From: Candidatus Zambryskiibacteriota bacterium
GTDB taxonomy: Bacteria > Patescibacteriota > Minisyncoccia > Phycocordibacterales > DATDWN01
Direction of reading: 5' to 3'
NCBI GenBank assembly: GCA_009694965.1
Contig: SIBV01000001.1
Coordinates: 1-63,755 of the forward strand
DNA: 63,755 nucleotides
The notes below the pieces were generated by a model. The model saw nothing but the letters and a program-made list of their open reading frames with translations. It searched no databases and was not told the origin of the DNA. Positions 308 through 8,063 of the stretch are shown piece after piece; position 1 is the stretch's first letter, and each line of letters starts with the position of its first letter. Position numbers and translations under genes: made by a program.

Positions 308-420
308 GTTGTATCGAGAGTATGGCGAGAGCAACTGGCTCAAGGACCCATCAGCAACCCTCAGAAATGAGAAGGTGCCAAATCCAGCCAAATAGCGAAA
401 GCTAAATGGAAAGATAAGAC
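308..420 (+). promoter_or_regulatory. SAM-I (S-box) riboswitch aptamer
   Basis: S-box conserved blocks in canonical order: TATCGAGAG / GGCGAGAG / ACTGGCTCAAGGACCCATCAGCAACC / GGTGCCAAATCCAGC / GAAAGATAAGAC; P1 pairs 308-315 with 413-420. Confidence 0.8.
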
Positions 421-4903: not shown

Positions 4904-4964
4904 TTATAACTCTTTTTTAACATAATTTTTATAAATATTAACTACATAGGGTTACCCTATGTAA

Positions 4965-5015
4965 GCAAAATCCCCAAGGTCCGACCTCGGGGATTTTGCT
5001 TGAAGTGGTTTTTTT
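4965..5015 (+). terminator. long hairpin terminator
   Basis: GCAAAATCCCC (4965-4975) pairs with GGGGATTTTGC (4989-4999); T-run at 5009-5015. Confidence 0.6.
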
Positions 5016-5030
5016 AGGTAAAATGAGGAA

Positions 5031-8000
5031 ATGAAAGAATATGATCATTTATCTATCGAGAAGAAGTGGCAGAAAGAGTGGGAGAAGAAGAAGGTCTACA
5101 AAACGCTAAATACGTCAAAGAAAAAGAAATACTATGTATTGGATATGTTTCCTTATCCTAGCGGTGTGGGACTTCATGTAGGTCATCCAAAGGGTTATAT
5201 AGGATCGGATGTGTTCGCTCGCTTCAAGCGGATGCAGGGATTTAACGTGTTACACCCTATGGGATATGATGCTTTCGGTTTGCCTGCCGAGCAATACGCA
5301 CTCGAGCACCATATACATCCGAGAAAGGCTGTTTTGGAAAATGTGAAGGCGTTTGAGGCTCAATTAAATAAAATTGGTTTTTCGTATGATTGGGAAAGAA
5401 GGGTCAATACTACTGATCCAGAATTTTATAGATGGACACAATGGATTTTTCTTAAAATTTATAATTCTTGGTATAACCAAAAGACTAACAAGGCCGAACC
5501 TATAGAAAAACTAATAAAAATCTTTGAAAAATCTGGGAATGTTGGAGTAAACGCTGCAGGAACTTTTACATCAGAGTTTGTAGCTAAAGAATGGAATGAA
5601 AAAATAGAAAAAGAAAAACAAGATATTCTAATGAATTATCGTTTGGCGTATGAGGGCTACAGTGAGGTGAATTGGTCGCCTGTTTTAGGAACAGTTTTAG
5701 CTAATGACGAAGTGGTAGATGGTCCAACTGGTCCTGTCTCAGAGAGAGGCGGCTATCCAGTCGTAAAAAAAGAGATGAGACAATGGTTCTTGCGTATCAC
5801 AGCATATGCAGATAGATTAGCTAAGGGATTGGATACTCTCAATTGGTCAGACCACATCAAAGAAATTCAAAAAAACTGGATAGGGAAGTCTGTTGGAGCT
5901 GAAATTGATTTTAAAATCAAAGATGGTCAAAACATCAGGATTTTTACCACCAGACCAGATACTATTTTCGGTGTGACTTATTTAGTTTTGGCACCAGAAC
6001 ATCCAGCATTACTGAATTTAAAATCAAAAATTAGGAATTGGGATGCTGTTTCTAGTTACATCAACAAGACAAAATTAATAACTCCAGAAGAAAGAATGGA
6101 TTCAAAAGAAAAAACTGGTGTTATTCTCCGTGGCATCGTTGCTATAAATCCTGCAAATGGTGAAGAAATTCCAGTGTGGATTGCAGATTATGTATTAGTT
6201 AATTATGGCACCGGAGCGATCATGGCAGTACCCGCACATGATGAAAGGGATTTGGAGTTTGCTCAGAAATATATTTTACCTTTTAATGAAGTGATTATCG
6301 AAGTTTTTGGTGATATTTTAAAAGAACCAATACGTAGAGATGTTGTTAAGGCAATTATCGTGAGAAATAATAAAGTTTTATTGGTTAAAGAAAATAATGA
6401 ACAGTATTCATTACCTGGTGGTTCTTATGAGTTAGGTGAAAGTGATTTAAGTGCTCTTTCGAGAGAAATAAGAGAGGAAACTGAATATAAGAATTTTAAA
6501 ATAAAGGATTATCTTGGAAGTGTAGAAAGATTTTATAGGAAGGATATGAAAAATAATACTGGAGAGAATAGAGTTCGAAGGATTGCAGGATATCTTGTTG
6601 AAATAACCAACGAGGAGAAAGAAAAAATTCAACATGATGGTTGGATAACAGAAACTAAGTGGTTTGATATGAAAGAAGCGATTGAAGTTCTTAAAAAGAC
6701 TGATTATAATGCTGAAGCGCTTTTTATAAAAAAAATATTGGAAAATAATCATTGTTTTGTTAGTGAGGGCATTCTGGTTAATTCTGGGAAGTTCAACGGT
6801 TTTTCTTCAGAGGAAGCAAAAATTAAAATCACAAAAGAAGTGGGAGGTAAAATTGTGACAAAATATAAAATACGGGACGCAATTTTTGCACGCCAGAGAT
6901 ATTGGGGTGAACCTATCCCTCTTGTTCACACCAAGGACGGAATAATTAAGCCACTTGGAGATAAATCTCTCCCATTAAAACTTCCAGATGTGAAGTCTTA
7001 TGAACCCACTGGGACTGGGGACTCACCGCTGGCTGGTGTTAAAGAGTGGATGAAAAAAGGTTTAGAGACAAACACTATGCCTGGTTGGGCTGGATCTTCA
7101 TGGTATTACCTTGCGTACATGACGCAAGGAATTTCCAATTTCCAATTTCCAATTTTCAAAAATAATACTAAAGCCAAAAGAACCAAAGAAGCTATTCAAT
7201 ATTGGAAAAATGTAGACATGTACGTGGGTGGGCAGGAGCATGCCACAGGACATTTACTTTATTCTCGTTTTTGGCACAAAGTTTTAAAGGACTACAATTT
7301 GGTACCGACAGAAGAACCATTTCAGACTTTACGAAACCAAGGAATGATTCTCGGGGAGGATAATCGTAAAATGGGTAAGAGGTGGGGCAATGGAGTAAAC
7401 CCTGACGATGTTGTGAAATACTATGGTGCAGACACACTCCGTGTTTATGAAATGTTTATGGGACCTTTCGAAAGCTCACTACCTTGGAGCACAGATAATA
7501 TAATAGGCTCTAGGCGTTTCCTAGATAAAGTTTGGAGACTTCAAGAAAAAGTTGTTACTAAAAAAATGTCAAGGACAGTCCTTGACATTAGTACTAATAC
7601 TAAATTGGAGGCATTACTTCACAAAACTATCAAAAAAGTAGGAGATGATATAAATAACTTTGCATTTAACACGGCTGTGTCCTCAATGATGATTCTTGCA
7701 AATGAAATGGAGAAGCAGGAGGAGATAAAACAAGCACATTTTGAGATGTTTCTGAAAGTCCTCAACCCTTTTGCGCCCCACATGACCGAAGAGATTTGGA
7801 AGTTTTTGGGAAATAAGACATTGCTTGTAAATGAGAAATGGCCAAAAGCAGATCCAAAAAAGATGTTGGAATTAGAAGTGAAAATTGTAATACAAGTAAA
7901 TGGAAAGGTTCGAGCAGATTGTATGATAATTCTAAATACGCTAGAAAATGATGTAATTGAAATGGTTAAAACATTACCAGATGTAGAGAAATGGTTACTA

Positions 8001-8063
8001 GGTAAAGAAATAAAAAAAGTTATATATATTCCAAATAGATTAGTAAACTTGGTGATTTTTTGA
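5031..8063 (+). CDS. leuS: leucine--tRNA ligase with an inserted Nudix domain
   Basis: HVGHPKGY (HIGH), CP1 editing domain (TTRPDTIFGVTY), AHDERDLEFAQKY, RQRYWGEPIP, KMGKR (KMSKS-like); 1010 aa, longer than usual bacterial LeuRS. Confidence 0.95.
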   Translation: MKEYDHLSIEKKWQKEWEKKKVYKTLNTSKKKKYYVLDMFPYPSGVGLHVGHPKGYIGSDVFARFKRMQGFNVLHPMGYDAFGLPAEQYALEHHIHPRKAVLENVKAFEAQLNKIGFSYDWERRVNTTDPEFYRWTQWIFLKIYNSWYNQKTNKAEPIEKLIKIFEKSGNVGVNAAGTFTSEFVAKEWNEKIEKEKQDILMNYRLAYEGYSEVNWSPVLGTVLANDEVVDGPTGPVSERGGYPVVKKEMRQWFLRITAYADRLAKGLDTLNWSDHIKEIQKNWIGKSVGAEIDFKIKDGQNIRIFTTRPDTIFGVTYLVLAPEHPALLNLKSKIRNWDAVSSYINKTKLITPEERMDSKEKTGVILRGIVAINPANGEEIPVWIADYVLVNYGTGAIMAVPAHDERDLEFAQKYILPFNEVIIEVFGDILKEPIRRDVVKAIIVRNNKVLLVKENNEQYSLPGGSYELGESDLSALSREIREETEYKNFKIKDYLGSVERFYRKDMKNNTGENRVRRIAGYLVEITNEEKEKIQHDGWITETKWFDMKEAIEVLKKTDYNAEALFIKKILENNHCFVSEGILVNSGKFNGFSSEEAKIKITKEVGGKIVTKYKIRDAIFARQRYWGEPIPLVHTKDGIIKPLGDKSLPLKLPDVKSYEPTGTGDSPLAGVKEWMKKGLETNTMPGWAGSSWYYLAYMTQGISNFQFPIFKNNTKAKRTKEAIQYWKNVDMYVGGQEHATGHLLYSRFWHKVLKDYNLVPTEEPFQTLRNQGMILGEDNRKMGKRWGNGVNPDDVVKYYGADTLRVYEMFMGPFESSLPWSTDNIIGSRRFLDKVWRLQEKVVTKKMSRTVLDISTNTKLEALLHKTIKKVGDDINNFAFNTAVSSMMILANEMEKQEEIKQAHFEMFLKVLNPFAPHMTEEIWKFLGNKTLLVNEKWPKADPKKMLELEVKIVIQVNGKVRADCMIILNTLENDVIEMVKTLPDVEKWLLGKEIKKVIYIPNRLVNLVIF
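6330..6749 (+). other. in-frame Nudix hydrolase domain inserted in LeuRS (about aa 434-573)
   Basis: Nudix box GSYELGESDLSALSREIREETEY (nt 6420-6488) fits Gx5Ex7REUxEExGU except the final G; lies between AHDERDLEFAQKYILP and GILVNSGKFNGF, which are about 20 aa apart in E. coli LeuRS. Confidence 0.8.
7131..7158 (+). repeat. tandem heptamer repeat inside leuS coding sequence
   Basis: ATTTCCA x3 plus ATTTTCA, encoding ISNFQFPIF in a loop that is longer than in E. coli LeuRS. Confidence 0.8.

What the first reader, a model, noticed from the sequence alone, without database searches (positions are those of the whole stretch)
6330..6749. Nudix hydrolase domain inserted in frame inside leucyl-tRNA synthetase
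Seen:
- An in-frame segment of about 140 aa lies between AHDERDLEFAQKYILP and GILVNSGKFNGF. The first motif marks the end of the CP1 editing region. The two motifs are about 20 aa apart in E. coli LeuRS.
- The segment contains an almost perfect Nudix box, GSYELGESDLSALSREIREETEY. It fits Gx5Ex7REUxEExGU with only the last G replaced.
- An upstream beta-strand pattern, VKAIIVRNNKVLLVKE, is typical of Nudix folds.
- The catalytic Glu residues of the box are present.

Established: aminoacyl-tRNA synthetases make Ap4A-type dinucleotides as side products, and many Nudix enzymes hydrolyse them.

Inference:
- A LeuRS-embedded Nudix domain could clear diadenosine polyphosphates, aminoacyl-adenylates or another nucleotide signal at the source.
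- Alternatively it could act as a ligand sensor.

I do not recall this architecture being described.
Basis: partly seen in the sequence, partly recalled or inferred. Interest (0 to 1): 0.7.

Follow-up and report, generated by a model that had tools for sequence, protein, structure and literature searches.

The report
Swappable Nudix hydrolase cassette inside LeuRS
The leucyl-tRNA synthetase of this uncultured bacterium carries a complete Nudix hydrolase domain inside its proofreading domain, and related bacteria exchange, replace or delete this module like a cassette, which is unexpected for an essential translation enzyme.

Summary
ORF 5031-8063 (+) is a bacterial LeuRS (TIGR00396, 904 bits). 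A Nudix domain occupies aa 436-558 (Pfam 57 bits, cut-off 21). AlphaFold2 models it confidently (pLDDT 92), and its best solved match is Aquifex aq_158, an Ap4A hydrolase and RNA 5'-pyrophosphatase.

The insert lies inside the CP1 editing domain, not at its end. It splits a hairpin that is about 22 aa long in Thermus LeuRS. All LeuRS catalytic and editing motifs are intact.

It is not a chimera. In the window's own sequence set, 76 of 120 LeuRS carry a Nudix at the same site. So do Bacillota MAGs.

The new result is that the module behaves as a cassette:
- Insert identity and core identity are uncorrelated.
- LeuRS pairs 89-95% identical in the core carry inserts 27-47% identical, with sharp DNA breakpoints.
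- The nearest syntenic orthologue lacks the insert.
- The window's copy is compositionally foreign (GC3 18% versus 33%).
- The catalytic Nudix residues are nearly invariant across all cassette types.

The most likely reading is a tethered, active pyrophosphohydrolase acting on nucleoside oligophosphates (ApnA, or the same groups on RNA 5' ends). The substrate is untested. No paper describing this architecture was found in the library searched.

The parts
5031..8063 (+). leuS ORF, 1010 aa, a bacterial-type leucyl-tRNA synthetase that carries the nested domain
   Evidence: Single ORF. TIGR00396 scores 904 bits against a cut-off of 548. The locus is syntenic with the insert-less orthologue in L001.
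5175..5186 (+). HIGH motif (HVGH, aa 49-52) of the synthetic site
   Evidence: Read directly from the sequence. H49, G51 and H52 are invariant in the 108-sequence alignment.
5871..6296 (+). First part of the CP1 editing domain (aa 281-422). It includes the T-rich motif TTRPDT (5946-5963) and the AHDERD motif (6234-6251).
   Evidence: PF13603 matches aa 281-424 to profile positions 1-142 of 185. T306, T307, R308, D310, T311, D404, R406 and D407 are invariant or nearly invariant.
6297..6764 (+). Exchangeable cassette: linker plus Nudix domain plus linker (aa 423-578). It is absent from the nearest orthologues P0003 and P0004.
   Evidence: L001 has a 465-nt gap at this position, while the flanks are 75-85% identical in DNA. 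The protein alignment shows the same. GC is 29.3% against 37.3% for the rest of the gene, and GC3 is 17.9% against 33%. This is the first percentile of all 468-nt windows.
6336..6704 (+). Nudix fold proper (aa 436-558 by Pfam; AlphaFold2 secondary structure spans aa 434-571)
   Evidence: PF00293, 57.1 bits. AlphaFold2 pLDDT 92.3 and pTM 0.86. Foldseek finds 3I7U at E = 1.6e-10 with a target-normalised TM-score of 0.77-0.80.
6420..6488 (+). Nudix box GSYELGESDLSALSREIREETEY (aa 464-486)
   Evidence: Regex hit. Family conservation among 76 sequences: G464 76, E470 73, R478 73, E479 76, E482 75, E483 76, G485 74. The window has E at position 485.
6765..6890 (+). Second part of the CP1 editing domain (GILVNSGKFNGF..., aa 579 to about 620). 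It resumes after the cassette.
   Evidence: Aligns to Tth LeuRS from residue 377 onward. G580, L582 and F588 are nearly invariant.
7368..7382 (+). KMSKS-type motif (KMGKR, aa 780-784)
   Evidence: Read directly from the sequence. M781, K783 and R784 are invariant in the alignment.

Best explanation
The window encodes the housekeeping LeuRS of a Paceibacteria-type (Zambryskibacteria) bacterium.

Shown:
- A complete MutT-type Nudix domain is nested in a surface hairpin of the CP1 editing domain. It lies between the AHDxRDxEFA helix and the GxLxNSGxFxG strand.
- The domain is modelled as an independent module.
- The synthetic and editing motifs of LeuRS are intact.

Inferred:
- The protein is bifunctional: leucylation and editing, plus metal-dependent hydrolysis of a pyrophosphate bond in a nucleoside-oligophosphate compound.
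- The most likely substrates are dinucleoside or nucleoside oligophosphates of the Ap4A type, possibly the same chemical groups at RNA 5' ends.
- The Nudix module works autonomously and is merely tethered to LeuRS. It is not an allosteric part of it.

Shown, on evolution:
- The module is an accessory cassette. It is present at the same site in most related LeuRS and in some Bacillota.
- It is replaced by distant variants between otherwise near-identical genes.
- It is absent from the closest orthologue.
- It is compositionally foreign in this window.
For: Architecture:
- establish the ORF, the domain hits, the insertion point and the models.

Catalytic competence:
- The Nudix-box residues G464, E470, R478, E479, E482 and E483 are conserved in 73-76 of 76 cassettes, although the cassettes average about 30% identity to one another.
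- In the pairs that inherited the cassette vertically, insert identity (85-99%) equals core identity (87-95%). The whole domain is therefore under purifying selection.

Substrate class:
- The best PDB match by sequence (3I7U, E = 3.7e-7) and by fold is aq_158. It hydrolyses Ap4A-Ap6A and RNA 5' oligophosphates and caps.
- DIPP/NUDT3-4 and other Ap4A hydrolases follow in the fold ranking.
- The domain is acidic (median pI 5.5), yet it keeps conserved basic residues R436, K507 and R514 and an aromatic residue 16 positions after the box.

Cassette behaviour:
- Core and insert identity are uncorrelated (Spearman -0.05; 237 of 300 Mantel permutations reach the observed value).
- 8 of 16 pairs with at least 85% core identity carry inserts only 27-61% identical.
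- The syntenic loci L010 and L011 are about 90% identical in DNA, except for about 535 nt at 25-48% identity that covers exactly the cassette.
- Bacillota LeuRS are 44-47% identical to CPR cores, but their inserts are 41-46% identical to P0012's insert.
- The window's cassette has GC3 of 18% against 33% for the rest of the gene.
- The nearest orthologue lacks the cassette at a syntenic locus.
Against: - No activity has been measured.
- Nudix substrate specificity cannot be transferred reliably at 27% identity.
- All specific NCBIfam Nudix equivalogs score far below their cut-offs.
- The window's own copy replaces the last Nudix-box glycine with Glu. It is a singleton cassette type whose best relative is only 39% identical.
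- Its closest orthologues have no cassette at all, so this particular copy could be under relaxed constraint.
The distance from the Nudix metal site to the editing pocket or to the tRNA ends is therefore unknown.
Confidence: 0.6

Rival explanations
1. The Nudix module acts on RNA, specifically on the tRNA held by LeuRS. It would remove a 5' triphosphate or a non-canonical cap from tRNA-Leu, or a pyrophosphate or ADP-ribose-type adduct at the acceptor end. The editing domain would serve as the docking platform.
For: - The module sits in the domain that binds the tRNA CCA end. This comes from established knowledge of LeuRS; the position of the insert is.
- The closest solved relative, aq_158, removes ppp, pp, m7G, NAD, FAD, Np4 and sugar caps from RNA, even when the 5' end is base-paired (PMC13145063).
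- RppH, BdRppH and Dcp2 appear among the sequence and fold hits.
Against: - The cassettes are uniformly acidic (mean net charge -6.3; 97% have pI below 7). That is unlike RNA-binding surfaces.
- NCBIfam RppH models score 16-21 bits against cut-offs of 116-259.
- Mature tRNAs normally carry a 5' monophosphate made by RNase P (established knowledge).
- The frequent absence of the cassette in sister lineages argues against a core tRNA-maturation role.
Confidence: 0.17
2. The cassette is a conflict or immunity module embedded in the target enzyme. It would destroy a nucleotide-type LeuRS inhibitor (adenylate-mimic antibiotics) or a toxin- or phage-made nucleotide or adduct. Antagonists would therefore keep it under diversifying, frequency-dependent selection.
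For: - Cassettes are replaced between near-identical LeuRS, show presence/absence polymorphism and transfer across phyla.
- The same editing domain in relatives hosts other small-molecule-modifying enzymes: GNAT, Ser_hydrolase and alpha/beta-hydrolase, HAD, ASCH, and second or third Nudix copies.
- From memory: immunity to aminoacyl-adenylate mimics such as microcin C uses a GNAT (MccE), a serine hydrolase (MccF) and a phosphoramidase. Agrocin 84 targets LeuRS.
Against: - No direct evidence exists.
- No Nudix enzyme is known to cleave acyl-adenylate or phosphoramidate mimics.
- No defence or toxin genes were seen next to leuS in the window or in L001, L010 or L011.
- Cassette exchange could also come from neutral recombination in a dispensable region.
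Confidence: 0.12
3. In this particular genome the Nudix domain is catalytically dead or decaying, or it serves only as a structural or ligand-binding appendage.
For: - It has the G485E change in the box, which 74 of 76 relatives do not have.
- It departs from the consensus at W454, H506 and H540.
- Its AT-rich composition is at the first percentile of the window.
- The nearest orthologues have no cassette.
Against: - All metal-binding and catalytic residues (E470, R478, E479, E482, E483) are retained, as are R436, K507, N513, R514 and W544.
- The reading frame is intact and the fold is modelled with very high confidence.
- Related cassettes and stand-alone Nudix proteins also vary at the last box position (P in P0088, D in P0139).
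- Low GC3 fits recent import better than decay.
Confidence: 0.1
4. The insertion is an assembly chimera, an intein or another selfish in-frame element.
For: Only the patchy distribution and the foreign base composition.
Against: - The same protein occurs on 4 contigs and in several archives.
- 76 of 120 related LeuRS clusters, from NCBI, ENA, JGI and Logan, carry a Nudix at the identical site.
- Pfam finds only LeuRS and Nudix domains, with no Hint or endonuclease domain.
- The insert folds as a plain Nudix domain.
Confidence: 0.01

Closest known systems
Bacterial LeuRS with a CP1 editing domain (T. thermophilus 1H3N/2BYT; E. coli 4AQ7/4ARC)
   Same: - Full-length homology (597 bits to 1H3N).
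- HIGH and KMSKS motifs.
- T-rich and AHDxRD editing motifs.
   Different: - A 140-aa Nudix domain replaces the tip of a hairpin of about 22 aa inside the editing domain.
- An extra segment of about 58 aa lies at aa 146-203.
- There is no leucine-specific domain.
Aquifex aeolicus aq_158, 'Ap4A hydrolase' / Omnivore RNA pyrophosphatase (PDB 3I7U, 3I7V)
   Same: - Best PDB match by sequence (E = 3.7e-7).
- Best PDB match by fold (E = 1.6e-10, target-normalised TM-score 0.77-0.80, 27% identity).
- A minimal single-domain Nudix with the same box and an aromatic residue after it.
   Different: - aq_158 is a free-standing 134-aa protein.
- The similarity is too low to transfer specificity.
- aq_158 itself is promiscuous (ApnA and many RNA 5' groups).
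NadM-Nudix, a bifunctional NMN adenylyltransferase / ADP-ribose pyrophosphatase (NCBIfam PRK05379 family)
   Same: A HIGH-motif adenylate-forming enzyme and a Nudix hydrolase sit in one polypeptide. There are weak NCBIfam hits of 13-18 bits.
   Different: - It is a terminal fusion, not a nested domain.
- Scores are far below the cut-offs (354-449 bits).
- The host enzyme is different.
IleRS with an N-acetyltransferase domain (NCBIfam NF040702, ileS_w_GNAT)
   Same: It is a class Ia synthetase that carries an extra catalytic domain. Relatives of the window's LeuRS also carry a GNAT in CP1 (P0077).
   Different: - The synthetase and the added domain are different.
- The match to this model comes only from the shared synthetase core.
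Exchangeable target-recognition domains of Type I restriction-modification HsdS subunits (an analogy recalled from memory)
   Same: Variable domains are swapped by recombination between conserved flanking segments. The result is near-identical genes with unrelated central cassettes.
   Different: - There is no homology.
- Here the host is an essential translation enzyme and the cassette is a catalytic hydrolase.
- The driver of the exchange is unknown.

Membership tests
Nudix superfamily (PF00293) | Profile HMM score above the curated cut-off | tested here: met
   57.1 bits on the fragment and 52.5 bits on the whole protein, against a cut-off of 21.1.
Nudix superfamily (PF00293) | Nudix box Gx5Ex7REUxEExGU with the catalytic Glu residues | tested here: met
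   G464, E470, R478, E479, I480, E482 and E483 are present. Only the last G is E485. 74 of 76 relatives have G there.
Nudix superfamily (PF00293) | Alpha/beta/alpha Nudix fold | tested here: met
   AlphaFold2 pLDDT 92.3. Foldseek probability is 1.0 to many Nudix structures.
Nudix superfamily (PF00293) | Metal-dependent pyrophosphohydrolase activity | not testable with these tools
   Needs enzymology.
Bacterial leucyl-tRNA synthetase (TIGR00396) | Equivalog HMM above its cut-off, and intact HIGH, KMSKS and CP1 editing motifs | tested here: met
   904 bits against a cut-off of 548.4. HVGH, KMGKR, TTRPDT and AHDERD are present.
Ap4A / ApnA hydrolase subgroup of Nudix | Closest characterised homologue is an ApnA hydrolase. 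An aromatic residue (Tyr) lies 16-18 residues after the box; this rule is recalled from memory. | tested here: inconclusive
   The best PDB hit, 3I7U, scores only 33 bits at 27% identity. Y502 lies at +16 in the window, and the family has F or Y there in 70 of 76 sequences. No curated model was available.
RppH RNA pyrophosphohydrolase (NCBIfam PRK00714 models) | Equivalog HMM above its cut-off | tested here: not met
   15-21 bits against cut-offs of 116-259.
MutT 8-oxo-dGTPase (TIGR00586 / PRK10776) | Equivalog HMM above its cut-off | tested here: not met
   14.5-16.9 bits against cut-offs of 97.9 and 148.
Intein or homing element | Hint splicing domain and/or an endonuclease domain | tested here: not met
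   Pfam finds only LeuRS and NUDIX domains. The insert is modelled as a plain Nudix domain.

The most novel reading that the evidence does not exclude
The CP1 editing domain of LeuRS in small-genome bacteria (Patescibacteria and some Bacillota) is a landing pad for horizontally exchanged enzyme cassettes. The cassettes seen are Nudix, GNAT, serine hydrolase, HAD and ASCH domains. They would act as countermeasures embedded in the target enzyme during a chemical or biological conflict. For example, they could destroy nucleotide-type synthetase inhibitors or toxin-made adducts on tRNA ends at the enzyme itself. Cassette turnover would be driven by an arms race.
Probability: 0.12. Interest if true: 0.9.

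Novelty: new variant of a known kind. Interest (0 to 1): 0.72.

Why it matters
Aminoacyl-tRNA synthetases are among the most conserved and most vertically inherited proteins. A catalytic domain nested in the proofreading domain of an essential synthetase is unexpected, and here it is also exchanged like a cassette between near-identical genes and across phyla.

If the Nudix module hydrolyses Ap4A-type nucleotides, it links a synthetase physically to removal of the alarmone-like by-products that synthetases make. If it acts on tRNA ends, it defines a new kind of tRNA quality control. If it is a conflict module, it is a new form of target-embedded immunity.

There is also a practical consequence. 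NCBI names these proteins 'NUDIX domain-containing protein' or 'class I tRNA ligase family protein'. LeuRS can therefore be scored as missing in surveys of candidate-phyla genomes.

Tried and rejected
1. A word-indexed search with the insert alone found only one weak stand-alone Nudix. The exhaustive phmmer search found no close relative of the window's cassette. The best hit had E = 3.7e-16 and 39% identity, and 833 hits were mostly generic Nudix. The donor could not be identified.

2. My first reading was that the insert evolves about twice as fast as the core. I rejected it. In vertically related pairs the insert is as conserved as the core, and the low identities come from cassette replacement.

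3. I suspected Nudix remnants in the short linkers of the insert-less P0082 and P0016. They are not significant. The direction of each presence/absence event, gain or loss, is therefore unresolved. For P0003 and P0004 a deletion is likelier, because they lack even the native hairpin loop.

It returned only 6 loci, so it gives occurrences, not a census.

5. Foldseek against viral structures gave only generic Nudix hits, weaker than the PDB hits.

6. Model coordinates are not exposed. The geometry of the Nudix site relative to the editing pocket and the tRNA could not be measured.

7. Literature searches found nothing on this architecture. The two candidate papers I opened were irrelevant to it.

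8. Rfam and ARAGORN found no T-box or tRNA near leuS.
Full report
**1. What is there**

The window has one uninterrupted ORF of 1010 aa at 5031-8063 (+). It is a bacterial-type leucyl-tRNA synthetase. TIGR00396 scores 904 bits against a cut-off of 548, and T. thermophilus LeuRS 1H3N scores 597 bits.

Pfam NUDIX matches aa 436-558 at 57 bits against a cut-off of 21. The box G464-x5-E470-x7-R478-E479-I-x-E482-E483-x-E485-Y486 deviates from the consensus only at the last glycine. It is the only such box in all six frames of the window.

AlphaFold2 models the whole protein at mean pLDDT 87.7 and pTM 0.79, with the Nudix region at 91-96. The isolated region scores pLDDT 92.3.

**2. Where it sits**

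Alignment to Thermus LeuRS puts query aa 436 at Tth 375 and query aa 576 at Tth 377. The Pfam editing-domain profile is broken at about position 142 of 185. The Nudix domain is therefore nested inside the CP1 editing domain, at the tip of a hairpin that is about 22 residues long in Thermus. It is not at the end of that domain.

The following LeuRS motifs are present and lie in invariant or nearly invariant columns of a 108-sequence alignment:
- HIGH (HVGH, aa 49-52)
- KMSKS-type (KMGKR, aa 780-784)
- the T-rich editing motif (TTRPDT, aa 306-311)
- AHDERD (aa 402-407)

The host enzyme looks fully functional.

**3. Not an artefact, and not rare**

The identical protein is in NCBI, ENA, nr and Logan on four contigs. 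NCBI labels it 'MAG: NUDIX domain-containing protein [Candidatus Zambryskibacteria bacterium]'.

In the 120-sequence set (the window's own LeuRS plus its 119 best matches), 76 carry a 140-172-aa Nudix insert at exactly this site. They lie on contigs of up to 840 kb from four archives.

A follow-up protein search found about 35 more Nudix-bearing entries among its 120 best hits. Most are unnamed; among the few that carry a source name, the Nudix-less ones are Bacilli, Erysipelotrichaceae, Anaeroplasmataceae and Clostridia MAGs. One Nudix-bearing entry is labelled Saccharimonadales. Every source name seen is a MAG; none is a cultured organism.

**4. The catalytic machinery is conserved**

Conservation across the 76 cassettes:

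| Residue | Sequences with it (of 76) |
|---|---|
| G464 | 76 |
| E470 | 73 |
| R478 | 73 |
| E479 | 76 |
| E482 | 75 |
| E483 | 76 |
| G485 | 74 |
| R436 | 72 |
| K507 | 69 |
| N513, R514 | 65 each |
| W544 | 73 |

The window keeps all of these except G485, which is E. Variation at that position also occurs in related cassettes and in stand-alone Nudix proteins (P in P0088, D in P0139).

**5. The unexpected part: the module is a cassette**

Insert identity is uncorrelated with LeuRS-core identity (Spearman -0.05; 237 of 300 Mantel permutations reach the observed value).

Among the 16 pairs whose cores are at least 85% identical, the picture is bimodal:
- Eight pairs have equally similar inserts (85-99%).
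- Eight pairs have inserts only 27-61% identical. Examples are P0108/P0061 (core 95%, insert 28%), P0071/P0086 (89% and 30%) and P0048/P0064 (91% and 46%).

Conversely, some inserts are more alike than their cores. P0060/P0105 are 76% versus 66%, and P0102/P0013 are 71% versus 62%.

Protein-level identity profiles show sharp drops confined to the cassette. I fetched the DNA for one pair from independent assemblies. L010 and L011 are syntenic and about 90% identical, except for about 535 nt at 25-48% identity. The breakpoints fall just after the KKY codons and just before the FDGMS codons.

The Bacillota LeuRS are only 44-47% identical to the candidate-phyla cores. Their inserts are nevertheless 41-46% identical to the insert of P0012. 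Clustering gives 32 cassette types at 50% identity, and the window's is a singleton.

My first inference, that the insert simply evolves faster, was therefore wrong. Where the cassette is inherited vertically it is as constrained as the core. Otherwise it has been replaced.

**6. The window's own cassette**

- The nearest orthologues (P0003 and P0004, 80-83% core identity) have no cassette and not even the native loop.
- P0003's locus is syntenic with the window: YchF, M23 peptidase, cupin, DUF5671, leuS, sigma-like protein, DUF8128, YceG.
- The DNA alignment shows 75-85% identity on both sides of a 465-nt gap.
- The cassette has 29.3% GC against 37.3% for the rest of the gene. GC3 is 17.9% against 33%. 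This is the first percentile of all windows of that size. That indicates import from a lower-GC donor.
- Its best relatives anywhere are only 34-39% identical. They are P0122, P0045, P0123 and P0126, all LeuRS-embedded but in distant cores, and stand-alone Nudix proteins of 150-190 aa score about the same.
- Whether it was captured from another leuS or from a free Nudix gene cannot be decided.

**7. What it probably does**

By sequence and by fold, the nearest solved protein is A. aeolicus aq_158. Diphosphoinositol-polyphosphate/ApnA hydrolases (NUDT3/4), other Ap4A hydrolases and RppH follow in the ranking.

aq_158 hydrolyses Ap4A-Ap6A. According to a 2026 paper, it also removes tri- and diphosphates and many caps from RNA 5' ends, even base-paired ones (PMC13145063).

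The cassettes are uniformly acidic (median pI 5.5), but they retain conserved basic residues and an aromatic residue 16 positions after the box. This fits a small oligophosphate substrate better than an RNA-binding surface. A tRNA presented by LeuRS would not need such a surface, however.

All substrate-specific NCBIfam Nudix models score far below their cut-offs.

I therefore commit, with moderate confidence, to an autonomous, active pyrophosphohydrolase tethered to LeuRS that acts on nucleoside oligophosphates of the Ap4A type. Action on tRNA or RNA 5' ends is the main rival.

The sensor idea is disfavoured. Catalytic residues are conserved, and cassettes swap without changes in the core.

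**8. Wider context seen on the way**

Relatives carry further enzymes nested in the same editing domain.

At a second site, near profile position 20:
- alpha/beta-hydrolase (P0047)
- ASCH (P0062, P0065)
- GNAT (P0077)
- HAD (P0093)
- Nudix (P0112, P0222)

Downstream of the Nudix site:
- a second Nudix (P0046, P0065)
- a Ser_hydrolase (P0122, P0222, P0143)

Some proteins have three Nudix domains (P0150, P0185, P0198).

This suggests the CP1 domain is a general landing pad for small-molecule-processing enzymes. Together with the cassette turnover, it motivates the speculative conflict or immunity reading.

**9. Novelty**

Seven full-text searches found no description of a Nudix domain in LeuRS or in any synthetase. 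A clan-wide Nudix review that I opened does not mention synthetases. The AARS Online paper appeared in one search with no occurrence of the term Nudix; I did not open it. The library is incomplete, so this is absence of evidence only.

Both domain families are well known and the proteins are already in public databases. The nested architecture and its cassette dynamics appear to be undescribed. I classify it as a new variant of a known kind.

Noticed in passing
window 308-420 (+): A SAM riboswitch (RF00162, 56.6 bits against a gathering score of 44.4) lies upstream of ORF 768-1868. By synteny with L001 that ORF is a YchF-type GTPase, which is an unusual pairing for an S-box.
   Followed up: no
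window 5466-5639 (aa 146-203 of LeuRS): There is an extra segment of about 58 aa where Thermus LeuRS goes straight from residue 145 to 147. It is conserved in this clade. The leucine-specific domain (Tth 580-637) is absent.
   Followed up: partly
window 4940-5010: A GC-rich inverted repeat (GCAAAATCCCC...GGGGATTTTGC) followed by a T-run lies just upstream of leuS. It is probably the terminator of the DUF5671 gene. Rfam detected no T-box leader.
   Followed up: no
window 6447-6752 (-): A 101-aa antisense ORF lies inside the AT-rich cassette. Nothing supports it as a gene, and it is probably a by-product of base composition.
   Followed up: no
relatives P0047, P0062, P0065, P0077, P0093, P0112, P0122, P0143, P0150, P0185, P0198, P0222: Other LeuRS carry additional nested domains in CP1: alpha/beta-hydrolase or Ser_hydrolase, ASCH, GNAT, HAD, and a second or third Nudix. 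They occupy at least two further insertion sites.
   Followed up: partly
L010 5376-5996, L011 5393-5995, L006 777-1955: An HD-domain nucleotide hydrolase gene sits immediately upstream of the Nudix-bearing leuS in two unrelated lineages. It is a YfbR-like 5'-nucleotidase in L010 and L011, ending a few nucleotides before leuS. In the Clostridia MAG L006 it is dGTPase-like.
   Followed up: no
P0002, P0009, P0028, P0036 and others: NCBI names these synthetases 'NUDIX domain-containing protein' or 'class I tRNA ligase family protein' instead of leucine--tRNA ligase. Automated surveys may therefore score LeuRS as missing.
   Followed up: no
P0196 (987 aa): A protein combining an nSTAND1 NTPase, an FGE-sulfatase domain and a C-terminal Nudix appeared among the relatives of the window's cassette. 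This is a conflict-system-like architecture.
   Followed up: no
window 1-63755: ARAGORN found no tRNA gene in the whole 63.7-kb window.
   Followed up: no
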